Origin: a virus
Taxonomy: Duplodnaviria; Caudoviricetes
DNA length: 64,000 nt
Direction: 5' to 3' (one strand)
Virus record (IMG/VR): IMGVR_UViG_2724679462_000002
Location: 64,001 to 128,000 of that record
The notes below the pieces were generated by a model. That model saw only the letters and a list, made by a program, of their open reading frames with translations. It was not told the origin of the DNA and made no database searches. The position numbers and the translations under genes were made by a program. Positions 5,801 through 57,779 of this stretch are shown piece by piece. Positions within the stretch are counted from its first letter, which is position 1, and each line of letters begins with the position of its first letter.

Positions 5801-8800
5801 CCCAGACCCGTTGCCGCTGCTGCGCCTTCTGCGCCAACAGTTGCCGCGCCTTCCAACCCGGCAGACAACGCACCGCGGCCAAGGAGACGTCCCATTCCGC
5901 TTCTCAGGACGTTCTTCGCGCCTCCGAGCATCCTGCCTACACGACCGGCACCCGGAATGCGCTTGAGTAGCCGCTTCGCCTTATTGAACATCCCACCGCC
6001 GCCACCGATGCTGTCGCTCTCGGAATCCTGAATCGCGGCTTTCATCGCGGCGTACATACCCGCGATCCTTCCGTCTTTCGCCAGCTCGGGTGGCAACGAC
6101 GAACCACTCAGAAATTTGGCGACGCGATTCAGTCCCAGCGAACTCGCCATACCGCCGAGCATGTTGCCGGCGCGTGACAAGCCAGGCGCGATCTTGCTGA
6201 TGGCCTTGCGGATGAACCCCTTGCCCGCAGTCGCCTCACCGGCTTCCTCCGACTCTTCTTCGTCCTTCTTCTTGAAGCGATCCGTCAAGCCCTTGATCGC
6301 ATCCTTGATTTTGGACAAAGCAGCGCCCATCCCGGTTTCACCGGCCTTGCCGTCGCCCGCGGGAAGTTTCTTCTCGTGCTCCTTCTCTTCCCAGGAGCCC
6401 TTGACGAAGCCCTCTCCGTCATCGCCCAAGAGACGCTTCTTCGGGCGCGGTAAGCGCTCGGTGAGGATGTCGCGGATCTCGGTGAGACGGTCGATCATGG
6501 TCCGGGAGCCTGCAAAGATAATTCCGTCCTTGCCCAGCCAATTCTCGAACCAGTTACCCAGTGCCTTGAAGGGTGCAGAGACGAATGTCTTCGCCATCTC
6601 GAAGCCCTTCGACAGAGCACGGCCCGCCATCGCGAACGGCTTCCTCGCCAAGTCAAGGAGCTTCGCAAGCGGCGTCTTCATTGGCTTCCCGTTCCGGTCC
6701 ACAAGGCCTTTTGCCAGATCCTCTTTTGTCAAGACCAACTTGATGTTGTTCTTGTCGCTGATGTCTTCGACCGGGCCATCGATGAGACTGGGACGGGTGA
6801 TCAGCGTCCCCTTGAGTTGGGACCGATACGCGCCCCCGCGCATCATGATCGCAAGCATCACGGGGTCGTCCTTACCCTTGACGTAGATGTCGACGGGCTG
6901 GTCAAGAAGGTCCATGCCCTTCTCGGCCAACTTGATCCCGTGCTCAATCACCTTGGGGACGAGTCTGAATACACCTCCGGCGATACTGTCGTATGCGCCT
7001 CTCAATCCCTTCCATGCCGCGCCCAGCGCCGAGATTGCCTTGACGCCTATCTTGCTCTTGCTGTACGCGCGACCGATGTCCTTCGCCTCAAGAACGATGT
7101 TGTCGTTGTCGAAGATGTCTTCGACGTCGCTCGTGATGTCCTTGTAAGACTTGATGATGTTGCCGGTCGCCTTGTCGCGGTAGTGACCTGCGCGCATCTT
7201 CCATGCGAGGAGGGCCGGCTCTTTCGACCCGGGAAGGTAGATGTCGTCGAAGCTCTTGGCGTAGCTCAGCGCCTTCTTGCCGCCGCCTGAGACGGCGTCG
7301 AGACCCGACTTACCCCAGCCCTTCACCTTGTGGAACATCGGCGAAGGACGTTTCCACCAGTCCCAGGCGCCCTGAAAGCCACCCTTGACCTTGTCGAGGC
7401 CCCACTTCCCTGCGCCGGCGGCTGCACTGCCAAAGTCGCCGACGGTCCACGTCAGCAGATTCTTCGAGCGTCGAACGCCACCTCCATCGGCGTCACCCAT
7501 GTGAGTTCCAACGCCCGAGCGACGATGACGGACATCAATACCTTCCTCGACCTTCTTTTGAATCGCGAGTAGAGTTTCATGGATCTTCTCCGAGATTGAT
7601 TTGCTGCTGCTTTCCTTGATCGCCTCGATGATCGGTTTCTGGTCGCAACAGTCCTTGACCCCCGTTTCAGCCGACTTCCGACCACCGATGTTCAGGTGGT
7701 GCTCAGGCGTCGTTTCTGCCGGGTCGTCGGCTTCGTCGAGCGCGCGCAGCCACTCGTCAAAGCCGTCCGGCTCGTGACGACGCGCCGCGTTCCAGTTCAT
7801 CGCTCCCAGCGTCTGCGCAGACGGACGATGACGCGCAGTCGGTGTGAACGCACGGCGGGGTTTCTTGCGAGGTCCTTGACCCTTGACACGCTTGGCACCG
7901 CGGTGACGTGACGCCATTGACGCATGGATGCCGTGGCTACTACCACCGCCCATCGGACGAACGTTGCCGCCGGCGTAACTCGCTGCCGGATTGAACGTGT
8001 CATGCAGGTAGTAGTCCATCAGCTTGTCGAGATCCAGCCGGCCGTTCTTGACCAGACCGGTCTGCATGACCACGTCCAGCATGCCGCTGCTGATCATGTC
8101 CTGGATAGCGGCGCGAGGATCCCCCATGCCCGAACCAAGATCGGCGAACCGCGCTTGGAAGCGCATCTGTTTGCCGCCGTCGTGGTCGTCCTTGAAGTAG
8201 TTCTCGAAGAGCTTGGCGAACGTGCCCGCATGTTCCGCATTGTCACCGCCATAGCTGAAAACATCGCTATAGCGCTTCGCGGACCCTGTCCGGTTCGTCA
8301 GGTTGTCCTGCATCATCCGGCGCAGGAGTGCCTTACGCTGCTTCTTCGTGAGCTGAACCCCGCTTTCCTTCTCCAGGTGATCGACCAGGTTCTTGCCCTT
8401 CTCGTGCACCCAGGCTTTGTCTTCCTTTCGCACCAGTGAGCCGAACGCGTTCTTCGCCATCTCGCTCTTGCTATGGAACGAGTTCCGGGTGTAGTCGTAC
8501 GTGGTGAGTTCGGTCTTCGCGTCGCCCGTGCGCAGAATCTGCAGCTCACGGTAGATGCGTGCCAGATAGCCCGGAATGACTTCCGTCAGTGACTTGCGGG
8601 CGAGTCCGTTGAACGGCGCGGGATCCTGAAGGTTGCGCAGGTTGTCGACGTGCATCCCGGTTTCGACACCGTTTGACGCGCGGATCTGATCCTTCAACCA
8701 CCGGATGCCTCCACCTACGAGCGGTACGTTGTCTCCGTGATCCGAGTGCGCCCATTCGGTCAGGTGTTGCGGTGCGTTACCGGCGTAGTACTGAGCCTTG

Positions 8801-32096: not shown

Positions 32097-32176
32097 TCAA
32101 TCTGTCGTCTGTCCCGCCTTCCCCCGCTGGGGAGGACGGGGTGGACGGCGTGTTGTTTGGTTCATTGAGAAAGAAA

Positions 32177-34423
32177 ATGATTCTGTTCCTTGAAGATTGG
32201 TATCGCTATCCGAACGCCATCATCGATACCAAGACGAGCAATCAAAGCTACGTCCGTCTCGCCTCGGTTTATCGAAAAATGGGCGTGAAGAACAACGCCT
32301 TCTGTCTGGCACTCATCAATCCTGCGCTCCAGGGTCTCGACCCGTTCGCGCCCGATCTTACGATCGAGGAAATGGCCGCGGTCGCTGTTGAAGTCAAGAA
32401 CAACCCGTGGTACTTCATGCGCGAAATCGCGCGCGTCCCGCCGATCGGTGGCGGTGGTTCGACACCGTTCGAAGGCAACCGGGGCAACGTAGCGCTGTTC
32501 TGGTGCTTCTTCAACCACGTCATGACGTTCCTGATTCAGATCCGTCAGACGGGTAAGTCGCTCTCGACCGACTTGTTGATGACGCTGCTGATGAATTTCC
32601 GCTGCGAGAACACGGAAATCAACTTGTTGACAAAGGACGAAACCCTCCGCAAGACCAACATCGACCGACTGAAGAAGTGCATTGACGAGCTGCCGCCGTA
32701 TCTGATCCAGCGTAACCCGAAGGTTGATACGAACAACACCGAGGCGATCACGATCAACTCGATGGGCAACATCTACAAGACGCACGTGCCGCAGGCGTCT
32801 GAGAAAGGCGCCTACAAGCTGGGTCGCGGCCTCACCTCGCCGATCATGCACATCGACGAATCGCCCTTCCAGCCTAACGTCCAGATTGCAGTCGGTTCGG
32901 CACTGGCTGCAACCGGTGCGGCAGTCGATAAGGTCAAGGCCAATGGTGGCGACTACGGGACCATCTTCACCACGACGGCTGGGAAGATCGACGATAAGGA
33001 CGGTGCTTTCATTTACGGATTGCTTCAAGCGGCTGCGATTTGGACGGAGAAGTTCTACGACGCGAAGAACCAGCAAGAGCTGGAGGACATGGTTCGTAAA
33101 GCATCGCGTGGCGAGAGGGGTGGCGTCTATCGGGTGAATATCACGCTGAATCACCGCCAGTTGGGCAAGACCGATGAATGGCTGCGTGAAAAGCTCGAAG
33201 CGTCGACCGCGAGCGGGGATGACGCGAACCGAGACTACTTCAACATGTGGACGGCGGGCTCGCTGACCAACCCGCTGCCGATCGCGATCCTCAAGGCGAT
33301 CACAAACAGCGTGCAGGATGTGAAGCACACGGAGATCAGCCCGCAAGGCTACGTCACCCGCTGGTACATCGAGGAAGAAGAGATCGAGCAACGGATGGCC
33401 GAGGGTCGCTTTGTGATGGGTATGGACACCTCCGAAGCTTCGGGCGGTGACGACATCTCGCTCTACCTCCAGGACATCGAGACGTTGGAAACGATCGCGG
33501 CCGGAACGTACAACGAAACCAACCTCATCACCTTCTGCGAATGGCTGTGCAGCTGGTTCGCCCGCTTCTCGACCTTCACGGCGAACATTGAGCGCCGCAG
33601 TACGGGCGCGACCGTGCTCGACTACTTGTTGCTGATGTTGCCCGCGATGGGAATCGATCCGTTCGAACGTCTCTTCAACAAGGTGGTGCAGGACTACGAC
33701 GAGATGCCGGACCGCTTCAAGGAGATCCAGGTTCCGATGGGTCGTCGCCCCGCGGACATCTACGTGCGGTACAAGAAGATGTTCGGCTTCACAACTTCGG
33801 GCGGCATGGGTGCAACGTCACGCGCCCTGCTCTACTCCGAATCGCTTCAACTCGCAGCGAAACGCGGCTGCACTGTCGTCCACGATAAGACGCTGATTGA
33901 GCAGATTACCTCGCTGGTGTCGAAGAACGGTCGTATCGATCACCCGGCAGGCGGGCACGACGACATGGTCATCGGCTGGCTGCTGAGCAACTGGCTGCTG
34001 ACGAAAGGCAAGATGCTTTCGTTCTACGGCATTGACCAGCGTCGTATCGGTGCAGCGTTGGGCGGCGCAACCGAGGAACAGGTCATCGATCGTCAGACGC
34101 GTCAAGAGCAACAGCAGATACGCGAGCAGATCGAGACCGTCTACGAGCAACTGTCGAAGGAGTCGAACGAGTGGATCTCGCAGCGTCTCGAACATCAGCT
34201 CCGTATGCTCGACCGCAAGTTGGTGTTGGAACAGGGCGAGATCTTCAGTTTGGATACGCTCCTCAACAACGCTCGCGAGAAGAAGCGCGAGCGCATGCGA
34301 GAAGGTGCGTCGAACAGGCGGAACATGCCGCAGTCCTATAACAACATGCACGGGCATTTCAGCGATCGACCACCCACCATGTCGATGAATGCGTACGAGC
34401 GGAGATTCCTCCGGGCGGCATAA
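32177..34423 (+). CDS. terL: Terminase large subunit
   Basis: 748 aa from MILFLEDW; NPWYFMRE, Walker A RQTGKS, Walker B MHIDE, TTTAG coupling motif, nuclease MGMDTS and GHDDMV. Confidence 0.92.
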   Translation: MILFLEDWYRYPNAIIDTKTSNQSYVRLASVYRKMGVKNNAFCLALINPALQGLDPFAPDLTIEEMAAVAVEVKNNPWYFMREIARVPPIGGGGSTPFEGNRGNVALFWCFFNHVMTFLIQIRQTGKSLSTDLLMTLLMNFRCENTEINLLTKDETLRKTNIDRLKKCIDELPPYLIQRNPKVDTNNTEAITINSMGNIYKTHVPQASEKGAYKLGRGLTSPIMHIDESPFQPNVQIAVGSALAATGAAVDKVKANGGDYGTIFTTTAGKIDDKDGAFIYGLLQAAAIWTEKFYDAKNQQELEDMVRKASRGERGGVYRVNITLNHRQLGKTDEWLREKLEASTASGDDANRDYFNMWTAGSLTNPLPIAILKAITNSVQDVKHTEISPQGYVTRWYIEEEEIEQRMAEGRFVMGMDTSEASGGDDISLYLQDIETLETIAAGTYNETNLITFCEWLCSWFARFSTFTANIERRSTGATVLDYLLLMLPAMGIDPFERLFNKVVQDYDEMPDRFKEIQVPMGRRPADIYVRYKKMFGFTTSGGMGATSRALLYSESLQLAAKRGCTVVHDKTLIEQITSLVSKNGRIDHPAGGHDDMVIGWLLSNWLLTKGKMLSFYGIDQRRIGAALGGATEEQVIDRQTRQEQQQIREQIETVYEQLSKESNEWISQRLEHQLRMLDRKLVLEQGEIFSLDTLLNNAREKKRERMREGASNRRNMPQSYNNMHGHFSDRPPTMSMNAYERRFLRAA

Positions 34424-40894: not shown

Positions 40895-41902
40895 ATGACT
40901 ACGCATGAACGTGAACGCGGCCGTGTACGCCTTTACGCCTGTGGCGGCGCAGGCGTGAACGTAGGTCACAAAGTCGATCGCGTCGCGCAGAGCAACGACG
41001 AAGCGTTCGCCCAGCTCGACGTCGTATACATCGACACGTCGAAGTCGAACCTGCACTCCGACATCAAGGCAGAAAGCGTCTACCTGATCGACGGCCTCGA
41101 CGGCTCCGGTCAAGTGCGTCGTGAAAATCACGGCGCCATCAGCGAGCGCGTGCGCGACATCCTGCAGACGTTCAAGCCGGTCGATCTCAACATCGTCCTT
41201 TCGTCGGCCGGTGGCGGTTCCGGATCAGTGATCGCACCTTCGATCGTTTCGGAACTCCTCGCGAAGGACTATCCGACGATCGTCATCTGTGTCGGCGATG
41301 ACAGCACGAAGAAGTACAGCGAGAACACACTGAACACGCTGAAGTCCTACGACCAGATCGCGTCGACCGTACGTCAGCAGCCGGTCATCATGTCGTACCT
41401 GCAGAACAGCGCGGACATGACGCGCCCCGTCGTCGATCAGCGCGTGCAGCATCTCGTAGCCGCACTGTGCCTGCTCTTCTCGCGCCGCAACCGGGAGCTG
41501 GACTCGAAGGATCTGTACAACTGGCTGCACTACCAGAAGGTCACTTCGTACAAGCCGGCGCTCACCGCGCTCACGCTCATCGAAGACCTGAACGCCACCA
41601 GCCTCAGCAAGATCGGCAACCTCATCAGCATCGCGACGCTCACGATGCCTGACGTCGATCCGAGCCTGTCGCTGCGTCCGGAAGTGCAGTACGTCGGCTA
41701 CATCGAGGGCGACACCGCCTCCGACAAGCTCAACATGCTGGCACCGTTCCACTACGTCACCTCCGACGGCGTCTTCGCGGAAGTCGCCGCCGGACTGAAC
41801 ACCGTGCTCCGCGAGCTCGAAGAGCAGACCGCCGCACGTCTGAACAAGGCAGGCATTTCGACCAGTGCTGATCAGGCTACCGATACCGGCCTGGTGTTGT
41901 AA
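40895..41902 (+). CDS. phuZ: PhuZ phage tubulin/FtsZ-like spindle protein
   Basis: 335 aa, AAGGA RBS; ACGGAGVNVG, IDTS, DGSG, signature GGGSGS, NTLNTL, ELDSKD; C-terminal DTGLVL. Confidence 0.92.
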   Translation: MTTHERERGRVRLYACGGAGVNVGHKVDRVAQSNDEAFAQLDVVYIDTSKSNLHSDIKAESVYLIDGLDGSGQVRRENHGAISERVRDILQTFKPVDLNIVLSSAGGGSGSVIAPSIVSELLAKDYPTIVICVGDDSTKKYSENTLNTLKSYDQIASTVRQQPVIMSYLQNSADMTRPVVDQRVQHLVAALCLLFSRRNRELDSKDLYNWLHYQKVTSYKPALTALTLIEDLNATSLSKIGNLISIATLTMPDVDPSLSLRPEVQYVGYIEGDTASDKLNMLAPFHYVTSDGVFAEVAAGLNTVLRELEEQTAARLNKAGISTSADQATDTGLVL

Positions 41903-42541
41903 CTGGTGGCGGGATCTGATGCGCGGGCTGTGCTTAACCCCCGCGTGCCGGATTCTGATCAAACGCGGATACTCGTCAAAGACGGCGCATGACGTGCACA
42001 TGCGCTCGTTCGTCCCCAAGCTAACTGCACACCCTAAAGAGCCGGATACCGCGGTCAAATGGAGGCCGTATGGACCCCACGCTCTGGCGGGTTTTGCCTG
42101 GGACATGACGAGTCCGCTCGCCAGATTTCTCACCTGACATCGAACAAACAAGAAGCTTCTTTATCAGGAAGCTGGTCATCGCGAAGTGTGCTGACACGAG
42201 ACTTGAGTTCAGCCACCCGAGGCATCGGGCTGGTCCCGAGAGGGAGCAATTGTTTCGAATGAGGTCCAAGGCACTGTCGCATCGATCGAGGTTCAGTGAG
42301 AACCAATCTACCGATCGTCCCGCAGGATCCGATTGCTCGGAGGACGGGATGATCCCAACCAGCCTGCGAAGGCAGGTTTGGAATGCGTTCGCGCTGAGCG
42401 CATTCCAAATCAACATCAACAGTTACGGACGACGGCGAGCCGGTATGCGCGATACCGGGCCAGACGAGCACGCCTAACCGGTTTGGGCATAGCAGCAGTC
42501 TGAAAAGGGCCGGGGGTGAAAAGTCCCCACGTCGTCCACCC
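41903..42541 (+). ncRNA. Putative structured non-coding RNA(s) / leader upstream of ACP
   Basis: No credible ORF. Consecutive helices with GNRA loops (GGCA, GAGA, GCGA). Long-range pairs 41965-41978/42106-42117 and 42427-42434/42530-42537. Confidence 0.55.
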
Positions 42542-42556
42542 GATCTAGGAGAAAGC

Positions 42557-42811
42557 ATGAGCGATAAACAGCAAATCGAAGAACGCGTTAAAGCCATCGT
42601 ATCGGCTCAGCTTCAGGTCCCCGTCACGGACATCAGGAACGAGGACACGATCGTCGCAGTCCTCGGTGCTGACTCGCTCGATGAAGTCGAGATGCTGATG
42701 GCAATCGAGGACGACTTCGGTTTGGACATCCTCGACGAGGACGCGGAAAGCTTCAAGACCGTTCAGAGCATCATCGACTACGTCAAAGGCAAAGTTCCGG
42801 CCACGGTCTGA
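42557..42811 (+). CDS. acpP: Acyl carrier protein
   Basis: 84 aa, acidic, AGGAG RBS; IEERVKAIV..QL, LGADSLD phosphopantetheine-Ser motif, EDDFG..I.DEDAE..KTVQ..IDYV. Confidence 0.93.
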   Translation: MSDKQQIEERVKAIVSAQLQVPVTDIRNEDTIVAVLGADSLDEVEMLMAIEDDFGLDILDEDAESFKTVQSIIDYVKGKVPATV

Positions 42812-43595
42812 TTTTTCTTAACCGGCGCGCGCCGCTTGCGGGAACTTGGCTCCCGCGCTGCGGTGCTCTTTTGTTGGGCGTCGGCGCGCAAACGGCGCGC
42901 CCTGCCCGTTGGGCGTGATGGTGAGCTAACACAATGTGAGGCCCGCGTTTGAACGTCACGCCCGCGCTACCTTGGCGCCGGTAGTCGCAGGGTTGAATTC
43001 AGTGCAACAAACTTAGGCTGCAGTAGTTTAGGTCTCGATCAATCCAAGTGATTGACTTCGATCAGATCGCCTGGGGAGGTGATGTGAGGAAGGCGCTCAT
43101 ACCTGATTTCAATCCTGCGTTTGTCCCAGTCTCCGTCACTCGCTACGCGCTGGTTGGCGCTGGCCGCGAGCGGGGCCCATTCCGAGACTGGATTCCATCA
43201 ACATCCGCAAAACAACCGAAGAGGTCCGCCATGAAGTAGGTTAGCTCACGCTCCCATTTCCAGTCCGATTGACTGAAGCCATCCATCAAGTGACCCTCTA
43301 GTGAGTGGTAAGACATTCCGCATTCAGTCTGGAACATATAGCGTCCACCTACGCGGCTGCGCGGGCCTGGCACGAGCATCGACTCGAGCCAACAAGGCAG
43401 CGCGCAGGCTAGTGCTGGCCTAATTGCTGATCCACTGTTTGCACGACGTCGTGATGGTCTCCCAACTGCTCAGCGGGATAAAACAAAGAGCGTCTGTCTC
43501 CGTACTGCTCAGCCGGACACAGCAGAGCTACGGGCCAATTCCCCAGGATCGCATTACGCGAGGAGGGAGTTGGCCCTAATTGCCTTTTATGCCGT
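42812..43595 (+). ncRNA. Putative structured non-coding RNA(s) downstream of ACP
   Basis: Chain of helices (e.g. gggcgtga/tcacgccc; ccagtctc 43126/gagactgg 43184; gggccaattccc 43532/gggagttggccc 43576) ending in TTTTATGCCG; only weak short ORFs. Confidence 0.45.
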
Positions 43596-43752
43596 CAATT
43601 CAGCCAGCCAGTGAAACAAACGGAACCCGTGTAAAATCCCGGCCTGTTTGTTTTCCAGAATGCCTCTAAAAACGCTCAGAAACGCTTCTGACGGGCTCGT
43701 GCTGGGAAGTTTATATCTCCACGTCAAATCGTGTAGAGACCAGGAGCCAGAA

Positions 43753-44133
43753 GTGTTTCGACAAGCCACTCTCATTCAGGACATCCGCGAGTTTTTCGCG
43801 ATTATCCAACCGCCGTTGCTGGAAATATTCGAGCAAGACAACGTCTGCTTCTCGGGAGCATCAATCGAGGACACGGTGGAATGGATCATCGCGCAGCAGA
43901 TCGAGAACTGCTACGGCCTGTCCGTTCAAGGACACACCCGCGAGCGCTCGGTCTACAGCGCACTTCACGATCAAGTTGCGAATGCCTTGCCGTATCCCAT
44001 CTCGTTGCCGGTTCGACAGTTAATAAAGGTGCCGTTGATTTACGACGACCAGTCCGTGAGCATCGATCTTCGAGGCACGGATTTGTACGTCTTCTATTAC
44101 ATCGACACCGCCCTCCTTTTCACTAGGCCATGA
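43753..44133 (+). CDS. Paralogue-array member 1 (126 aa)
   Basis: GTG with AGGAG RBS; TLIQDIRE ... IDLRGTDLYVF. Confidence 0.65.
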   Translation: MFRQATLIQDIREFFAIIQPPLLEIFEQDNVCFSGASIEDTVEWIIAQQIENCYGLSVQGHTRERSVYSALHDQVANALPYPISLPVRQLIKVPLIYDDQSVSIDLRGTDLYVFYYIDTALLFTRP

Positions 44134-44759
44134 ACTACCCGATTATTCAAACACTCAGGCTGGACCCGTTCCCCATCGCTTCGATGATTGAAGCGGTCGT
44201 CGGCGACTACCTGGTGAAGCCCGCCCCGGGTATCTATGCGAAGGGGAAGTTCGACCCGGTGATGCATCCGAGCGGCGTCTACTATCAGCAGGGTAGAAAC
44301 GAACGAGGCGACATCGGTAACTTTGTTGTCCGGACAATCGCCGACATACAGCGCGGTACTGAGGTCAGAGACCTGGACGGCAATGTGGTCGTGACGCCCG
44401 GGCAAATCCCAATGCTCTCCAACGATCCGACTCTGCCGACCCGCGGCATGGCGATCATTGAACGCCTCCTCATCGATACGCTTTCGATCTACGGCGACCA
44501 GCGCAAGCGGAGCGCTCGACAAGATGACTTCGCCCAGGTCGCTGCCGTCATCCACCCTGACTATCGCTCGGACCCCGAGATTGCCAATCAGATTCTGGGT
44601 ATGGCAAGCCCCATTCGTGGGCAGGTGCGGGACTTCGCAGGCGAGAACCGCTGGGTCATCCACTTTCTGCACAGGGAAGGCTTCGGCTTAATGGTCGAGA
44701 AAAGCATCGATTTTCGAATCGCTGACTGGCACCGAATGAAAGGATGTGCGTATGACTAG
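44130..44759 (+). CDS. Conserved-looking hypothetical protein, possible longer array member (209 aa)
   Basis: ATGA overlap; TLRLDPF ... LHREGFGLMVEKSIDFRI. Confidence 0.75.
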   Translation: MNYPIIQTLRLDPFPIASMIEAVVGDYLVKPAPGIYAKGKFDPVMHPSGVYYQQGRNERGDIGNFVVRTIADIQRGTEVRDLDGNVVVTPGQIPMLSNDPTLPTRGMAIIERLLIDTLSIYGDQRKRSARQDDFAQVAAVIHPDYRSDPEIANQILGMASPIRGQVRDFAGENRWVIHFLHREGFGLMVEKSIDFRIADWHRMKGCAYD

Positions 44760-48485: not shown

Positions 48486-49149
48486 TTTGACCCCTCTATC
48501 AGATAGAGTCGCTCGCTGCTGTAGTAACGAAGGTTGCTCAGGGAAAAGGAATGAACTGCTTGCAGCGACTTTCTCCTCTTTAAGGAGATACAGCGAAAGC
48601 GTTAGTGGCACTTATTATCAGCATACGGCAGGTGGACCAAATTTCCGCGCCCGTAAGTCTAACTATAGCAATCCGGAAGGAAAATGAAAGTCTAATATTG
48701 CCGTGAAGCGGCACGGACGGATCCGGTTTCGTTTCAACGAGGAAGCCAAAACACGCACGCTCAGGTCACCCAGGCGATCACGCTTATGAGAAGCTCTTTC
48801 ACTAGCGCGCTCGACGTCGAACTTACCTACCGATTTACTGACGAGCCTTCCTCGGTAGAAAAAATACCGCGCGGGCTCATGATTTGACTGGAAGTGATGC
48901 GCCAGTTCAACTCGTGTAATGACGTTCCTAATGCGCGAGCATGCGGGTGGTAAAAAGGGCATGACAGTGTCCGGTTAGCCTGCTGAGCGGCCTTGGCCGA
49001 TAGCGGGAACTCTGATGGGGATCGGAGGGGTGTCAACGGAGACGATTCGTAGCCGGTGGGTCTCGCGGCCGTCGCGCCTTTACTTCCTTGGAGGAAGCGA
49101 CGGCCGCACCAAGAGACACACCTGGGCTCGTCATCTTCGGCTTTGCTCT

Positions 49150-49183
49150 GGGAAGAGGCCTTCGGGTCTCTTCCCTTTTTTTT
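49150..49183 (+). terminator. Rho-independent terminator
   Basis: gggaagaggcc-ttcg-ggtctcttccc followed by T8. Confidence 0.8.
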
Positions 49184-49251
49184 GCCGTCTTCCCGGATCG
49201 AGCGTTTTTTATTGCGCGAATCAATCCTGTACGAGAAAGAAAGGAATTCCC

Positions 49252-51420
49252 ATGTCCACCTTCGACAATCCCTTTGTATTGCCGGCTTCGAAGTACGTCA
49301 GAGACATTGATGTCATGCGCCACTACGTCGATCAAAGCGTCGAGTACCTGTCGGCGATGACCGGCGCTCCCCGCGAACAGTGCTTGGCGTTCGTGAAGAA
49401 TAACCTGCGACCAGACGGCAAGTTCCCGTTCAAGGACCCGGCCGTGCTGTATCTGCGCCGCAACGAGCACGGCGACCGTGAACAGGTAGAAGGCACGCTC
49501 GGCGGCTACCTCTCTGAGTCGATCAAGGAACGTCAGCTCATTGCGCCCACGCTCACAACCTACTACCACCCGGCAGTCAAGAAGTCGCTGCTGGCGGGTT
49601 TCATTGACGCGAACGTCAAGCGCCGCGGCGTGGCAAAGAAAGCCATGTTCCAGGCACGCATGGACGGCAATTCCATCCTTGCGATTCTGAAAGACAACGA
49701 GCAGACGAACATGAAGCTCTCGAACAACGCATGTTCGGGCGCCCACGTCAGCGCATCTACCCCGCTCTTCAACAAGACCGCACACTCGACCCTGACCTCC
49801 AACTGCAGGTCGACCGCGGGCTATGGTTCAGCGAACAACGAAAAGTTTCTGAACGGCAACCGGCACTACTGGTCGCCGGACATCGTCAAGAACAACATCG
49901 TCTCGATTGTCACCAACACGGACTACGACTCGATCCTGCTCGCAATGAACGAGTTCGGGATTCGTCACCCGAGCGTCGAAGAGACGATGGAGTGCATTCG
50001 CTACTCGACGCAGCTGTATTTCCGCGACGAAGCAGCACACCGTCTGATTGAGCAGTACGTCAGCAAGCTCACGGACATCCAGCGCAGCGCGTTCGTCTAC
50101 ACCGGCGATCTGTACCACCTGATGAAGTTCAACCGGGAGATCGTCTACAAGTTCGTGCACGAGCTGTCGTCCCGTATCGGTGAGGCCCATCCTGATCCGG
50201 ACAGCATCATCAAGAACGCGCACGAAGATCACATCGCCCTCGCCTCGCAACTGTGTCCGAGAGAGATGAAAGGCAAGAAGGTGAAGGACGTGGCGGGGAC
50301 GGACGCGTATGGAATTCTGGCGTCAACCGTGGCACACATCGGCCAGGTGATCACGGAGTACAAGAACCTGATCAAGGCGTTCTGGGTGACGAAGAACGTT
50401 CCGGCTTCCCTCGCCCACTTCCCGGAAAGCATCCGTCGTTCGGCGCTGATGGGTGACACGGACTCGACCATCTTCACGGTGCAGGACTGGGTCCTCTGGT
50501 ACAACGACGGTCGCCTTGGCTATGACGATCGGTCGTCCGGCGTGGCAGCTACGATGATCTTCCTGGCGGCGCAGACCATCACGCACGTGCTCGCGCGTAT
50601 GTCCGCCAACTTCGGCATCGAAGAAAGCCGGATCTTCCAGGTGGCGATGAAGAACGAATACAAGTTCGACGTGTTCGTTCCGACGCAGGTGGCGAAACAC
50701 TACTACGCCTCGATCGGCTGTCAGGAAGGCAACCTGTATAAAGCGCAAGAGCCCGAGATCAAGGGTGTGCACCTGAAGTCGTCGGATGCCCCGCCTGCCG
50801 TGATGGCAAAGGCGAAAGCCATGATGATTCGGATCATGGACACCGTAATGGCCGAAAAAGGCGTGTCGCTCAAGGAAGTCATGGGCGAGATTGCCGCCCT
50901 GGAACATGACATCCGGACGTCGATTCTGGAGCGCTCGAGCTACGAGTACTTTCGCATGGGTCAGATCAAACCGGCTGCGTCCTACACGCTTGGACCAGAG
51001 CAAAGCAATTTCGCGCACTACACCTTCTGGAACCATACATTCGGCCACAAGTACGGCGAAGTGCAGGAACCACCCTACAACTCGGTCAAGATATCTGTCG
51101 ATCTGAAGTCGCCCGTGAAGATCAAGGCGTGGCTCGACAAGATGGACGATCGAGATCTCGCTTCGAGGTTGCAAAGCTGGTTTCTCAAGACCGGGAAGAA
51201 GGCGATCAGTACGTTCCACGTACCGGAACAGATCATCCAGTCCAAGGGCATTCCAAAGGAGATCAAGAGCGAGATCGCGATTCGGAAACTCATCACGGAT
51301 ACCGTCGCAGTGTTCTATCTACTCTTGGAGAGCCTTGGCGTCTATATGCAGAACAAGCAGATGACGCGCTTGGTCAGTGACCACATGGCTGCTCCAGTGA
51401 AAGATCTGGAAGCAGCATAG
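49252..51420 (+). CDS. B-family DNA polymerase, polymerase-domain subunit (phiKZ gp50-like)
   Basis: 722 aa from MSTFDNPF, AAGGA RBS; motif B KLSNNACSG, motif C GDTDS, KHYYA, EIKGVHLK. Confidence 0.88.
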   Translation: MSTFDNPFVLPASKYVRDIDVMRHYVDQSVEYLSAMTGAPREQCLAFVKNNLRPDGKFPFKDPAVLYLRRNEHGDREQVEGTLGGYLSESIKERQLIAPTLTTYYHPAVKKSLLAGFIDANVKRRGVAKKAMFQARMDGNSILAILKDNEQTNMKLSNNACSGAHVSASTPLFNKTAHSTLTSNCRSTAGYGSANNEKFLNGNRHYWSPDIVKNNIVSIVTNTDYDSILLAMNEFGIRHPSVEETMECIRYSTQLYFRDEAAHRLIEQYVSKLTDIQRSAFVYTGDLYHLMKFNREIVYKFVHELSSRIGEAHPDPDSIIKNAHEDHIALASQLCPREMKGKKVKDVAGTDAYGILASTVAHIGQVITEYKNLIKAFWVTKNVPASLAHFPESIRRSALMGDTDSTIFTVQDWVLWYNDGRLGYDDRSSGVAATMIFLAAQTITHVLARMSANFGIEESRIFQVAMKNEYKFDVFVPTQVAKHYYASIGCQEGNLYKAQEPEIKGVHLKSSDAPPAVMAKAKAMMIRIMDTVMAEKGVSLKEVMGEIAALEHDIRTSILERSSYEYFRMGQIKPAASYTLGPEQSNFAHYTFWNHTFGHKYGEVQEPPYNSVKISVDLKSPVKIKAWLDKMDDRDLASRLQSWFLKTGKKAISTFHVPEQIIQSKGIPKEIKSEIAIRKLITDTVAVFYLLLESLGVYMQNKQMTRLVSDHMAAPVKDLEAA

Positions 51421-55811: not shown

Positions 55812-57779
55812 ATGGCAGTCAACCACACTGGCAACAAGCAAGGCGCAGCAGCAGAAACCTCGATGGCCGCAGCATTCAGCCGCCAGCAAGACCAACCTGC
55901 GCAACAGCCGCAGCAGCAAGCCGCTGCGAGCGCCGCACAGCGGCCGATTCAGCGCACCCGTCTGTCGGATATCGGCAGCCTCTCGCGCGCGGCAATGGGC
56001 CGCAACCCGCAGAGCGAAGTCATCACGAAGCTCAGCAAGGCGCTCGAAGTAGCGTTCGCTGGCATCGACAAGAGCTACGAAGTCACGCTCATCCCGATCG
56101 ACTACAACAACACGAAGTCGCTGGTCAAGTCGGTCATCGTCGTCGCCATGCGCGATCTGGTGAACAAGGAAACGGGCGTGGCGTGCCACACCCTCATCCT
56201 GGAAGGCTCGAGCGAGCCGCTGCAGGTCGGCTACCAGATGATCAACAACCAGAACGTCGAAATTCTGCGTGTGAGTGGCGACTACAACAACAAGACGCTG
56301 TCGGACGAAGTCCTGAGCGCCGTGGCGCGCACGTTCGCCGGCATGCCGATCTGGCCGGTGGATGCATGCGTGGTGCCGCGCGACTTCAACGTCGAAGACC
56401 CGACGCTGGTTCACGAGCTGGCAGCGAATGCTGCGACGGCTTGCCAGACCGAACTCGAAGTTCGTCAGCCGGGCGGCTTCCAAGACGTGGACCTCGGCAC
56501 CGTCGAGCATGAGAACTCGCTGACCGTTCAGCCGACGTTCGGCAACGGTCAGTCGCGTGACATGGTCGGCGCGCCGGTTCGCTCCGACATCGTCATCGAC
56601 TTCCGCGCAGGCGGCCAGGAAATCCCGGGTCAGCAAGGCGAGACGCAACGCGTGAAGCAAATCTCGCGCATCAGCGGCTACATGGACCTCTTGTGGGCGC
56701 CGACCGAGCAGCAGACGCAACGTTTCGATCCGTGGGTTCAGCAAACGGCTCAGGCGTCGTCGCCCGACGAGTTCAAGCGTTACCGCCCGCGTTTCGTGAT
56801 GACCGATCTCGAGTCGGTGCAGCTACTCACGATCCCGGCGCAACTCCTGGCGCTCGTGACGGCATTCACGCTGGCTGAGAACAACGCATGGGTCGAAGCA
56901 TTCCGTCCGGCTCCGATGAACAACAGCGCGGAAGTGGACTGGAAGGACATCGGTGCGATCGGCATCGAAGCCAACTTCGAGAAGAACCAGAATGGCTTCG
57001 GTTCGCGCGTGGACACGAAGTCGGACGCGTTCCAGCGTGTTCAAGGTCAGGCAGGCGATCACCTCCTGCGTCTGGTCGGTTCGGTCATCACGCCGAAGCT
57101 GCTCCTCTCGCTGGACGTGCCCGAGTGCGGTCCGCAGACCTGGTTCAACGGCATCTTCGCAGCAGCCGCTGAGCTGAACGGCAACAACTGGCAGAAGGCG
57201 AATGAAATCATCATCCGTGCAGCGAACGTGCTCACGCATGGCAACTTCAGCCGCTACTTCCAGGCCGGCGCGCGTGTGGCGTCCGACGAATTCAACCGCA
57301 TCCACCTGGGTTGGTACGTCGACCGTCATGGCGTGAAGCGCGATCTGCGCGATGTCGATTACCTGGCCGTGCTCAACATGGTCGGCGATCGCGATCCGGA
57401 AGTCGCACGCGAATGGTCGGACTCGTTCGCTCGCACCAACCTGGATCTGCAAGTCCGTCTGGCGAAGCGCAAGCAGATCATCGAAGGCGTCCTCGGCAAG
57501 AACAATGTCGAGTTCACCGGCTTCGCACGCCGCGTGACCTTCGAACCGGCGTTCATCGTCGCGCTGCTCAACGCGTGCAAGGACACGGGCCTCTCGGTTC
57601 GCACCATTGCACCGATGACCGATCTGAACCAGTACGAGCGCGCGGTCAACCCGTACGCGATGTCGGCTGGTCTGGACACGTCTTCGCTGAACGGTTCGGT
57701 GTTCAACCGCGGCTTTGGGCATCAGCAGCAACAGCAGCATGGCGCCCGCGCTGGCTTCAGCCGCTGGTCCCAGCAGTAA
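55812..57779 (+). CDS. chmA: Chimallin, major phage nuclear shell protein (phiKZ gp54 / 201phi2-1 gp105-like)
   Basis: 655 aa, AAGGA RBS, strong codon bias, disordered Q/A-rich N- and G/F/Q-rich C-termini. Sits directly upstream of the nvRNAP beta' gene in a PhuZ-encoding phage. Call rests mainly on synteny and size. Confidence 0.82.
   Translation: MAVNHTGNKQGAAAETSMAAAFSRQQDQPAQQPQQQAAASAAQRPIQRTRLSDIGSLSRAAMGRNPQSEVITKLSKALEVAFAGIDKSYEVTLIPIDYNNTKSLVKSVIVVAMRDLVNKETGVACHTLILEGSSEPLQVGYQMINNQNVEILRVSGDYNNKTLSDEVLSAVARTFAGMPIWPVDACVVPRDFNVEDPTLVHELAANAATACQTELEVRQPGGFQDVDLGTVEHENSLTVQPTFGNGQSRDMVGAPVRSDIVIDFRAGGQEIPGQQGETQRVKQISRISGYMDLLWAPTEQQTQRFDPWVQQTAQASSPDEFKRYRPRFVMTDLESVQLLTIPAQLLALVTAFTLAENNAWVEAFRPAPMNNSAEVDWKDIGAIGIEANFEKNQNGFGSRVDTKSDAFQRVQGQAGDHLLRLVGSVITPKLLLSLDVPECGPQTWFNGIFAAAAELNGNNWQKANEIIIRAANVLTHGNFSRYFQAGARVASDEFNRIHLGWYVDRHGVKRDLRDVDYLAVLNMVGDRDPEVAREWSDSFARTNLDLQVRLAKRKQIIEGVLGKNNVEFTGFARRVTFEPAFIVALLNACKDTGLSVRTIAPMTDLNQYERAVNPYAMSAGLDTSSLNGSVFNRGFGHQQQQQHGARAGFSRWSQQ

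What the first reader, a model, noticed from the sequence alone, without database searches (positions are those of the whole stretch)
41903..43595. Acyl carrier protein gene embedded in ~1.4 kb of densely structured non-coding sequence next to phuZ: candidate undescribed RNA-ACP module
Seen: in an otherwise tightly packed genome, ~650 nt upstream and ~780 nt downstream of an intact ACP gene lack convincing ORFs. They are almost continuously base-pairable, with several GNRA tetraloops (42216-42229, 42234-42245, 42357-42378), a 13-bp hairpin (42378-42408) and nested long-range helices closing multibranch domains (41965/42117, 42427/42537, 43126/43191). The block follows phuZ on the same strand, downstream of an early-promoter-like motif, and ends in a TTATGCCG element. 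Known: phages carry large structured ncRNAs of unknown function (GOLLD, ROOL), and phiKZ-like phages form a lipid early-infection vesicle. Inference: this is one or more novel ncRNAs expressed early with ACP, acting as cis-regulators of ACP or as free scaffold/decoy RNAs.
Basis: partly seen in the sequence, partly recalled or inferred. Interest (0 to 1): 0.78.

Follow-up and report, generated by a model that had tools for sequence, protein, structure and literature searches.

The report
Large conserved structured RNAs beside phuZ
Two long non-coding stretches flanking an acyl carrier protein gene, just after the tubulin gene of a nucleus-forming jumbo phage, are conserved and fold like large structured RNAs that match no described RNA family, and their function is unknown.

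Summary
Window 41903-42556 and 42812-c.43586 are non-coding: codon-usage score is at most 0.11 in all six frames, against 0.5-0.7 in phuZ and acp, and substitutions show no overall 3-base periodicity. Both stretches are under purifying selection. They are 83-86% identical to two relatives, where four-fold degenerate sites of phuZ are only 56-64% identical.

Three IMG/VR jumbo-phage contigs share the layout phuZ - gap - acp - gap. Base pairs are kept through compensatory changes:
- Domain D1: 18 pairs changed on both sides, against 1-6 when partners are slid.
- Rest of the upstream block: 20, against 1-4.
- Downstream block: 36, against 3-13.

G-U to A-C ratios and folding energies favour the + strand. 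Rfam 15 gives no match. One metatranscriptome contig spans the upstream block into acp.

The "RNA-ACP module" reading is not supported:
- The D1 core hairpin lies after phuZ in a distant relative that has a gap but no acp there.
- One relative carries an extra ORF between the RNA and acp.
- Two other phage acp genes have no such flanks.
- The helix that would hide the acp ribosome-binding site is not conserved.

Best reading: a new family of large structured RNAs in the phuZ transcription unit, function unknown, probably a protein-binding scaffold. Only four genomes carry it, so the statistics rest on few lineages.

The parts
40895..41902 (+). phuZ, a tubulin-like gene. Its stop codon TAA abuts the first RNA helix.
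   Evidence: Pfam Tubulin 33.5 bits and TubZ_C_2 26.2 bits. tblastn hits 196 phage records, best Burkholderia phage FLC9 at 42%. TAACTGG is invariant in 4 of 4 sequences.
41903..42124 (+). Upstream RNA, domain D1: an outer helix closing a long hairpin and a multi-branch core. The invariant core hairpin GGAUACCGC...GUAUGGACCCC lies at about 42045-42079.
   Evidence: Of 66 pairs, 93.1% of cells are paired against 30-41% when partners are slid. 18 pairs change on both sides, against 1-6 slid and 4.8 +/- 1.9 shuffled, with 0 of 500 shuffles reaching 18. Model R1 scores 264.8, 261.7, 260.8 and 175 bits in the four genomes. z is -3.5 on the + strand and -1.9 on the - strand.
42128..42301 (+). Upstream RNA, domain D2: a closing helix, a covarying hairpin, and invariant strands CGAGACUUGAGUUC / GUUCCGAAUGAGG around a variable hairpin.
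   Evidence: helices 1-7. Invariant blocks are seen in 4 of 4 sequences. The two-block pattern was found only in the 3 related viral contigs and in no genome contig.
42302..42556 (+). Upstream RNA, domain D3: several hairpins, including the long one at 42375-42411, and the helix 42427-42434/42530-42537. The acp ribosome-binding site lies at its 3' end. D3 is poorly alignable in L007.
   Evidence: helices 8-16; helix 12 is broken in L007. z is -4.4 on the + strand and -2.3 on the - strand. A metatranscriptome contig covers 42284-42716.
42557..42811 (+). Acyl carrier protein gene of the AcpP type, 84 aa.
   Evidence: PF00550 1.5e-10. TIGR00517 80.5 bits against a cut-off of 70.45. About 70% nucleotide identity to acpP of genomes of the host family.
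42812..43584 (+). Downstream RNA. It starts with the invariant palindrome CGGCGCGCGCCG (42823-42834), contains several multi-branch domains, and ends in the hairpin 43532-43576.
   Evidence: Of 202 pairs, 89.2% of cells are paired against 36-41% slid. 36 pairs change on both sides, against 3-13 slid and 12.8 +/- 2.8 shuffled, with 0 of 500 shuffles reaching 36. Identity to L005 and L006 is 86% and 83%, against 64% and 56% at four-fold sites of phuZ. G-U to A-C cells are 103:23.
43585..43594 (+). TTTTATGCCG boundary motif following the terminal hairpin. It is probably a terminator / next-promoter signal.
   Evidence: TTATGCCG occurs 9 times against 1.23 expected. Most of the sites printed follow a GC-rich hairpin, read by eye. 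The same motif ends the post-phuZ gaps of L124 and FLC9.
43753..44133 (+). Next gene. The probable true start is GTG 43753, with AGGAG 6 nt upstream. The ORF as listed starts at TTG 43648.
   Evidence: ORF. The N-terminus ...ATLIQD resembles MDAPKALLIQD of L124 and MDLLTVTPQALL of FLC9 (by eye). No Pfam or NCBIfam match.

Best explanation
The two gaps encode large, multi-domain structured RNAs on the + strand. The upstream one is about 650 nt and starts at the phuZ stop codon. The downstream one is about 770 nt and follows acp.

Inferred: phuZ, RNA 1, acp and RNA 2 lie in one transcription unit. That unit ends at a hairpin followed by TTTTATGCCG, the phage's recurrent unit boundary.

Shown: the sequences are non-coding, under purifying selection, and keep their helices through compensatory changes. 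The invariant bases are concentrated in internal loops and junctions.

Inferred: the RNA locus belongs with phuZ rather than with acp. On this reading acp, and an extra ORF in one relative, were inserted between RNA modules.

Inferred, weakest step: the RNAs act as folded molecules that bind phage or host proteins, as a scaffold or decoy. They would work either as long UTR domains or after processing out of the transcript. They do not act as a switch for acp translation.
For: Non-coding:
- Codon score, ORF content and lack of periodicity.

Selection:
- The gap alignments are 85.3% and 83.2% (upstream) and 85.9% and 83.0% (downstream) identical to L005 and L006. phuZ four-fold sites are 64.1% and 56.4% identical.
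- Blocks stay invariant in L007, whose PhuZ is 72% identical.

Structure:
- D1: 18 pairs changed on both sides, 93.1% of cells paired.
- D2 and D3: 20 pairs, 90.5%.
- Downstream: 36 pairs, 89.2%.
- In each case 0 of 500 shuffles reach the observed value, and slid controls give 30-46% paired.
- L007 folded on its own gives the same D1 architecture.

Strand:
- G-U to A-C cells are 33:5, 53:12 and 103:23.
- Alignment-fold energy is lower on the + strand for both blocks.
- Domain z-scores are lower on the + strand wherever they are significant.

Not a known family:
- Rfam 15 at a permissive E-value gave only sX5 (21.3 bits, gathering score 50) in the window, nothing in L007, and a 16-bit antisense twister hit in L005.
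- No tRNA or tmRNA.

Tie to phuZ:
- R1 hits L124 at 6179-6211, 195 nt after its phuZ stop. The score is 20.4 bits, E 1.1e-5 in 801 nt, with a compensated stem.
- FLC9 also has a 770-nt gap after phuZ, with a weak core-like hit of 9.2 bits, E 0.0073.

Transcription:
- One 505-nt contig of a rhizosphere metatranscriptome covers 42284-42716 with 20 mismatches.

Unit boundary:
-.
Against: - Only four genomes carry the full elements. Three are close, so nearly all double changes come from one lineage, L007.
- The structures for D2/D3 and the downstream block were predicted by RNAalifold on the same alignments they were counted on, which inflates the counts. One slid control for the downstream block reaches 13 double changes.
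- The tool's own RNAalifold run gave the downstream alignment a positive (unfavourable) covariation term, +7.81.
- Thermodynamic stability is unremarkable for D2 and for the last two thirds of the downstream block, with z between -1.1 and -1.4. It is also unremarkable for D1 of L005, with z -1.2.
- D3 and much of the downstream block align poorly in L007.
- The transcription evidence is one low-depth contig (2.1) from an RNA library, with unknown strand. DNA carry-over cannot be excluded.
- Nothing points to a specific partner or activity. The scaffold/decoy step is inference only.
- The FLC9 match is weak. Three isolates tested whole (FLC9, LucasX, RTH11) gave no R1 match.
Confidence: 0.55

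Rival explanations
1. The blocks are long cis-acting untranslated regions. They would be the 3' UTR of phuZ, the 5' leader of acp and the 3' UTR of acp. Their role would be to control stability, translation, or export and localisation of these particular mRNAs in a phage that separates transcription from translation.
For: D1 starts directly at the phuZ stop codon in 4 of 4 genomes. No unit-boundary motif lies between phuZ and the end of the downstream block. The RNA contig runs from the upstream block into acp. In the window's minimum-energy fold the acp Shine-Dalgarno is paired. The phage encodes a nuclear shell protein.
Against: The Shine-Dalgarno-pairing partner is not conserved in L005 or L006. 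L007 places another ORF between the RNA and acp. L124 has the D1 core but no acp in the gap. Other phage acp genes have no such flanks. Phages RP12, RSF1 and Eowyn have only 124-199 nt after phuZ. About 1.4 kb with invariant internal loops is far more than known stabilising UTR hairpins need.
Confidence: 0.22
2. One or both blocks are a ribozyme, a self-splicing intron or a mobile RNA element, for instance an intron-like element carrying acp as cargo.
For: The size, the multi-domain architecture and the invariant junction nucleotides fit. acp sits between two structured blocks, as ORFs sit inside introns.
Against: Rfam has no hit at E<=1 to its group I, group II, RNase P or small self-cleaving ribozyme models. 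phuZ is complete to its C-terminus and the next gene starts afresh, so no exon is interrupted. The D5-like string at 42440-42464 lacks the bulge and the GNRA loop and is not kept in L007 (by eye; the D5 features are recalled). Each genome holds a single copy, which argues against mobility.
Confidence: 0.06
3. The conservation acts on DNA. The blocks would be a replication origin, a packaging site or a protein-binding array, possibly connected with PhuZ, and the hairpins would form in single-stranded DNA.
For: An invariant perfect palindrome CGGCGCGCGCCG and many inverted repeats. The locus lies beside a cytoskeletal gene whose plasmid relatives (TubZ) use centromeres; that point is recalled, not tested.
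Against: G-U pairs outnumber A-C by 4-7 to 1 in kept helices, which fits RNA on one strand. No iterons were found: only one 2-copy direct repeat. There is no GC-skew switch at the locus.
Confidence: 0.07
4. The blocks hold decayed genes or unrecognised small protein genes.
For: Short ORFs exist. One segment, A1 columns 565-710, shows uneven substitution phases with p=0.014. L006 has a 656-aa antisense ORF across the region.
Against: No frame has a positive codon score. The antisense ORFs score -44.9 and -18.3 and are broken by 1-nt indels between relatives. The other segments show no periodicity. Conservation is well above that of four-fold sites, which excludes neutral decay.
Confidence: 0.04

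Closest known systems
GOLLD and ROOL RNAs (large 'ornate' RNAs of unknown function, often in phages and prophages; Rfam families)
   Same: Hundreds of nucleotides long and multi-domain. Invariant junction or loop nucleotides sit between covarying helices. Phage-borne. No known function.
   Different: No cmscan match at E<=1 in the window, nor at E<=5 in two relatives. No tRNA genes nearby. Located in the phuZ unit of a nucleus-forming jumbo phage. Known from only four genomes.
Small RNAs reported in PhiKZ-like phages (201phi2-1 sRNA005 / phiKZ sRNA upstream of gp182; PMC11512511, passages read)
   Same: Non-coding RNAs conserved by position among giant phages.
   Different: Those are under 250 nt, derive from 5' UTRs and lie upstream of a tail gene. 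The paper has no occurrence of 'PhuZ'. The present elements are 650-770 nt and follow phuZ and acp.
ORF-carrying group I / group II introns
   Same: A protein gene flanked by two structured RNA blocks.
   Different: No interrupted host gene, no intron-family match and no homing endonuclease or reverse transcriptase. The cargo is an AcpP-type carrier protein.
Long structured bacterial leaders and riboswitches
   Same: A structured RNA immediately upstream of a gene's ribosome-binding site.
   Different: Three to five times longer. The helix that would sequester the ribosome-binding site is not conserved. The RNA persists where acp is absent or displaced.

Membership tests
Any Rfam 15 family (including GOLLD, ROOL, HEARO, OLE, group I/II introns, RNase P, 6S, tmRNA, riboswitches) | Covariance-model match at or near the family's gathering score | tested here: not met
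   Window 41000-44500 gave only sX5, at 21.3 bits against a gathering score of 50, E 0.15. L007 6900-9400 gave no match at E<=5. L005 6900-8900 gave only an antisense Twister-P5 hit at 16.3 bits against 37.6.
tRNA / tmRNA | ARAGORN detection | tested here: not met
   0 genes in the 64-kb window.
Structured functional RNA (generic) | Helices kept by compensatory changes beyond controls | tested here: met
   Searches give 18, 20 and 36 double-change pairs. Slid controls give 1-6, 1-4 and 3-13, and 0 of 500 shuffles reach the observed values. Caveat: four sequences, effectively two lineages.
Structured functional RNA (generic) | Transcribed on the predicted strand | tested here: inconclusive
   One metatranscriptome contig covers 42284-42716 at depth 2.1, with strand unknown. 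No infection RNA-seq is available.
Group II intron | Domain V: a 34-nt hairpin with catalytic triad, 2-nt bulge and GNRA loop (features recalled) | tested here: not met
   The only similar string, 42440-42464, forms a 7-bp stem with a 5-nt loop GCGCG and no 2-nt bulge. It is not conserved in L007 (by eye). No Rfam hit.
cis-regulator of acp | Conserved structure that occludes or exposes the acp ribosome-binding site, and constant linkage to acp | tested here: not met
   The pairing partner of the Shine-Dalgarno is not kept in L005 or L006. L007 has an ORF in between. L124 has the D1 core without acp in the gap.
Acyl carrier protein (AcpP type) | Profile score above the curated cut-off; phosphopantetheine-attachment serine in a DSL motif (motif recalled) | tested here: met
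   TIGR00517 scores 80.5 bits against a cut-off of 70.45. PF00550 scores 41.6 against 20.8. LGADSLD is present in 4 of 4 homologues.
PhuZ / TubZ-like phage tubulin | Tubulin GTPase domain plus the phage tubulin C-terminal domain | tested here: met
   PF00091 scores 33.5 against a cut-off of 33. PF22334 scores 26.2, just under its cut-off of 27. There is 35-42% identity over at least 89% of the length to genes annotated as tubulin PhuZ.
Nucleus-forming jumbo phage (Chimalliviridae-like) | Encodes the nuclear shell protein (chimallin) and PhuZ | tested here: met
   Window 55812-57776 matches phrog_4795 'nuclear shell protein' at 3.5e-101. phuZ as above. Related contigs are 279-285 kb.

The most novel reading that the evidence does not exclude
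The two blocks are new classes of large 'ornate' RNA, on the scale of GOLLD, ROOL or OLE, and specific to a lineage of nucleus-forming jumbo phages. On this reading they fold into defined tertiary architectures and work as autonomous molecules: an RNA-protein machine, an RNA-only assembly or a new ribozyme. Their ancient linkage to phuZ would then hint at a role in organising the infected cell (spindle, nucleus or mRNA traffic). acp would be a later insertion into the locus.
Probability: 0.2. Interest if true: 0.9.

Novelty: new variant of a known kind. Interest (0 to 1): 0.68.

Why it matters
Nucleus-forming jumbo phages are studied almost entirely through their proteins. Here about 1.4 kb of non-coding sequence is kept as tightly as the tubulin gene beside it. 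It folds into covarying multi-domain structures and matches no described RNA family.

This gives a concrete, testable candidate for a large functional RNA in this phage group. It also adds to the short list of very large bacterial and phage RNAs whose functions are open questions.

FLC9, a cultured Burkholderia glumae phage, has a comparable gap after phuZ. Soil and rhizosphere metagenomes hold relatives, so both bench work and deeper covariation analysis are within reach.

Tried and rejected
- Known RNA families: three Rfam scans and ARAGORN gave nothing usable.
- Homologues by DNA in the phage collection: only the acp part matched, in 2 records.
- Host-family genomes (401 searched; 396 scored, 5 not scored): only the acp part matched host acpP, at about 67-76% identity. 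216 of 396 genomes matched, G000 included. Nothing matched either RNA block. That tally includes the unpublished genome G217 and leaves out the five limited genomes G120, G158, G176, G240 and G248.
- A 14-mer scan of viral contigs was too unspecific. It returned 116 stretches, and nhmmer kept only the known contigs.
- The D1 core pattern scan returned 17 stretches. 3 were the known contigs and the other 14 showed no flanking similarity.
- The D2 two-block pattern matched only the 3 known viral contigs and no genome contig.
- PhuZ-profile scans: the metagenome scan gave 9 loci, all distant at 33-55% identity. The genome-contig scan gave none. The viral scan gave the same 3 contigs.
- Paralogues: nhmmer of both blocks against the whole 9.4-Mb assembly found only themselves. 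R1 found one copy in each of the two complete relatives, and none in FLC9, LucasX or RTH11 or around phuZ of RP12, RSF1 or Eowyn.
- Motifs of D2 and the downstream block were not found in the post-phuZ regions of L124, FLC9, LucasX or RTH11. The idea that acp split one ancestral RNA is therefore untested rather than supported.
- Pairing between the upstream and downstream blocks: my RNAduplex script simply zipped the two whole sequences together and says nothing. No conserved closing helix around acp was seen by eye.
- MAFFT could not align L124 structurally, so I used the covariance model instead.
- The RHAEK-type motif I thought I saw in the L007 extra ORF (a recalled histidine-phosphatase signature) has no Pfam or NCBIfam support.
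- DNA metagenome runs with small shares of the sampled words are not used as habitat evidence. Parts of the stretch without RNA-contig cover in X24 say nothing.
- Literature: five searches and passages of PMC11512511 turned up no RNA described after phuZ. 'PhuZ' together with 'structured RNA' gave 0 papers. For all other papers I saw search listings only. Supplements were not opened.
- I ran no protein homology searches, structure predictions or complex predictions, because the question concerned RNA.
Full report
CONTEXT

The window is G000:C275:64001-128000, part of a 143,740-bp contig with 57.7% G+C. The contig sits in a 9.4-Mb, 629-contig bacterial assembly of 62.8% G+C.

The contig is phage-like and of the nucleus-forming jumbo type:
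- 55812-57776 matches the PHROG 'nuclear shell protein' at 3.5e-101.
- 49015-51417 matches a DNA polymerase.
- 32168-34420 matches a terminase large subunit.
- 40895-41902 is a PhuZ-type tubulin.

The nearest named relative by PhuZ is Burkholderia phage FLC9, at 42% identity. Three IMG/VR contigs are much closer:
- L005: PhuZ 85% identical; a complete 278,988-bp genome with terminal repeats.
- L006: 79% identical; an 80-kb fragment.
- L007: 72% identical; 284,983 bp.

WHAT IS THERE

After the phuZ stop codon come 654 nt without a credible ORF (41903-42556). Next is an 84-aa AcpP-type acyl carrier protein gene at 42557-42811. TIGR00517 scores 80.5 bits against a cut-off of 70.45, and PF00550 also matches.

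About 770 nt follow, down to a hairpin at 43532-43576 and the motif TTTTATGCCG at 43585-43594. The next gene probably starts at GTG 43753 rather than at the TTG listed at 43648. I judge this from an AGGAG 6 nt upstream and from N-terminal similarity to the homologous genes of L124 and FLC9 (by eye).

All three close relatives have the same layout, phuZ - gap - acp - gap. L007 carries in addition a 159-aa ORF of no known family between the upstream gap and acp.

NON-CODING AND UNDER SELECTION

I trained a codon log-odds model on 96 long ORFs of the contig. It scores 0.5-0.7 per codon inside phuZ and acp, and never above 0.11 in any of the six frames across both gaps.

The antisense ORFs in the upstream gap (155 and 132 aa) have strongly negative scores, -44.9 and -18.3. 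The downstream gap has no ORF above 78 aa.

Substitutions among the window, L005 and L006 are spread evenly over the three phases. One segment of the upstream block is the exception, with counts 17/7/5 and p=0.014, uncorrected. The alignments contain many 1-2-nt indels.

Yet the gaps are 85.3% and 83.2% (upstream) and 85.9% and 83.0% (downstream) identical to L005 and L006. Four-fold degenerate sites of phuZ are only 64.1% and 56.4% identical. The gaps are therefore kept about as tightly as the tubulin gene as a whole (85.6% and 80.2%).

In L007 overall identity drops to about 49%, but blocks stay invariant. Examples are GGATACCGC...GTATGGACCCC, CGAGACTTGAGTTC, GTTCCGAATGAGG, CGGCGCGCGCCG, CAACTGCTCAGC, CCAGGATCG and TTTATGCCGTCA.

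STRUCTURE

Domain D1 (41903-42124) has the best case. L007 folded on its own reproduces the architecture seen in the window: an outer helix, a long hairpin, and a helix enclosing a hairpin and a nested core.

On the four-sequence alignment:
- 93.1% of 259 cells form standard pairs, against 30-41% when the 3' partners are slid by 1-3 columns.
- 18 of 66 pairs change on both sides, against 1-6 slid and 4.8 +/- 1.9 in shuffles, with 0 of 500 shuffles reaching 18.

For the rest of the upstream block (D2 and D3) I used the RNAalifold structure. It gives 90.5% paired cells against 30-46% slid, and 20 double-change pairs against 1-4 slid.

For the downstream block, 202 pairs give 89.2% paired cells against 36-41% slid, and 36 double-change pairs against 3-13 slid.

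These last two structures were predicted on the same alignments they were counted on, which favours them. The tool's own RNAalifold covariation term for the downstream alignment was unfavourable, at +7.81. Nearly all double changes come from the single divergent lineage, L007. D3 and parts of the downstream block align poorly there.

Thermodynamics alone is a mixed witness:
- The full upstream block scores z -4.6 on the + strand and -2.5 on the - strand. The downstream block scores -2.5 and -2.3 (shuffles each).
- By domain, on the + strand: D1 -3.5, D2 -1.1, D3 -4.4; the downstream thirds score -5.1, -1.4 and -1.3.
- D1 in the relatives scores -1.2, -2.4 and -7.1.
- In a 220-nt sliding scan only 42280-42499 stands out.

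STRAND AND TRANSCRIPTION

In the kept helices, G-U cells outnumber A-C cells 33:5 (D1), 53:12 (D2/D3) and 103:23 (downstream). The same helices read on the - strand would therefore lose about 10 points of pairing. Alignment-fold energies are lower on the + strand for both blocks. All flanking genes are on the + strand.

The motif T(T)TATGCCG occurs 9 times in the window against 1.2 expected. In most of the sites printed it follows a GC-rich hairpin (by eye). The same arrangement ends the post-phuZ gaps of L124 and FLC9. I read it as the phage's terminator/promoter boundary. Its resemblance to the TATG late promoters of phiKZ is recalled, not tested. None of these motifs lies between phuZ and 43585, so the two genes and the two RNAs plausibly form one unit.

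The only direct RNA evidence is a 505-nt contig from a rhizosphere metatranscriptome. It matches 42284-42716 with 20 mismatches, so it runs from D2/D3 into acp. Depth is 2.1, the strand is unknown, and DNA carry-over cannot be excluded.

WHAT IT IS NOT

It is no Rfam 15 family and no tRNA or tmRNA. It is not repeated elsewhere in the assembly or in the relatives' genomes. It is not present in 401 genomes of the host family, where only the acp part matches host acpP.

It is not an acp-specific device:
- Model R1 finds the D1 core hairpin in L124, 195 nt after the stop of a PhuZ only 41% identical. The hit reads GAUACCGCACUC...GAGUGUAUGGAUCC, with a compensated stem, at 20.4 bits and E 1.1e-5 in the 801 nt searched. 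The 683-nt gap there holds no acp.
- FLC9 has a 770-nt gap after phuZ with a weak core-like match at 9.2 bits, E 0.0073.
- The acp genes of phages BCSR5 and Bajun are tightly packed.
- Phages RP12, RSF1 and Eowyn have only 124-199 nt after phuZ, and LucasX and RTH11 only 56-186 nt, with no R1 match.
- The helix that pairs the acp Shine-Dalgarno in the window's minimum-energy fold has no conserved partner in L005 or L006.

MOST LIKELY MECHANISM

Shown: two conserved, non-coding, + strand-biased, covarying multi-domain elements in the phuZ-acp interval, with invariant bases concentrated in internal loops and junctions.

Inferred: they are transcribed with phuZ and acp and end at the hairpin/TTTTATGCCG boundary. 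The RNA locus is older than the acp insertion and belongs with phuZ.

Inferred, with least support: they act through their folded shape as protein-binding scaffolds or decoys, either processed or as UTR domains.

Rivals, with my rough weights:
- Purely cis-acting UTRs: about 0.2.
- Ribozyme, intron or mobile RNA: about 0.06.
- A DNA-level site: about 0.07.
- Cryptic coding: about 0.04.

NOVELTY AND VERDICT

I found no description in print. 'PhuZ' together with 'structured RNA' gave 0 papers. The 201phi2-1 transcriptome paper, of which I read passages, reports sRNAs under 250 nt elsewhere in the genome and never mentions PhuZ.

The elements resemble the class of large ornate phage and bacterial RNAs in scale and style. 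They are not members of any described family.

The finding is real and interesting. It is limited by the small number of genomes, the weak transcription evidence and the absence of any functional clue.

Noticed in passing
window 609, 639, 19819, 23374, 34416, 37355, 38544, 43587, 57851: TTATGCCG occurs 9 times against 1.2 expected. In most of the sites printed a GC-rich hairpin and a short T run come directly before TATGCCG. This looks like a combined terminator/promoter boundary signal of this phage. The same signal ends the post-phuZ gaps of L124 and FLC9.
   Followed up: partly
L007 7597-8076: An extra 159-aa ORF lies between the upstream RNA and acp in one relative. It has no Pfam or NCBIfam match. 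An RHAEK string recalled as histidine-phosphatase-like is unsupported.
   Followed up: partly
window 55812-57776; 49015-51417; 32168-34420: A nuclear shell protein (chimallin) homologue at 3.5e-101, a DNA polymerase and a terminase large subunit. The contig is a nucleus-forming jumbo phage inside a bacterial assembly. Contig G+C is 57.7% against 62.8% for the assembly.
   Followed up: partly
window 43648-43752: The next gene's listed TTG start is probably too far upstream. GTG 43753 has an AGGAG 6 nt before it and matches the N-termini of the homologues in L124 and FLC9. That leaves about 160 nt of poorly conserved leader after the TTTTATGCCG motif.
   Followed up: partly
window 41883-41890 and 42453-42461: The last codons of phuZ contain GATACCGG, which also forms the 3' strand of a D3 hairpin. 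The 5' strand of that hairpin (CCGGTAT) could therefore pair with either copy. RNAalifold drew this long-range helix (A1 columns 4-21 with 610-627), but it is only partly kept in L007.
   Followed up: no
L006 5977-7947 (- strand); L005 5977-7500 (- strand): Very long antisense ORFs (656 and 507 aa) run across phuZ, the upstream block and, in L006, acp. In the window the equivalent is split by a 1-nt indel and has strongly negative codon scores. They are probably shadow ORFs.
   Followed up: partly
window 42832-42873: A hairpin followed by CTCTTTTG lies directly after the acp stop and looks like an intrinsic terminator. The T-run is deleted in L005, and the consensus scanner did not list the site.
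   Followed up: no
window 42557-42811: The phage acp is about 70% identical at the nucleotide level to acpP of many genomes of the host family, including the assembly's own copy (C500:87128-87335, 68%). This suggests capture from a host.
   Followed up: no
L001 (FLC9) 5994-6763 and L124 5985-6667: Both have an unannotated gap of about 700 nt directly after phuZ. The minimum-energy fold of the FLC9 gap is -294 kcal/mol (no shuffle control). Whether these gaps hold diverged homologues of the RNA is open.
   Followed up: partly
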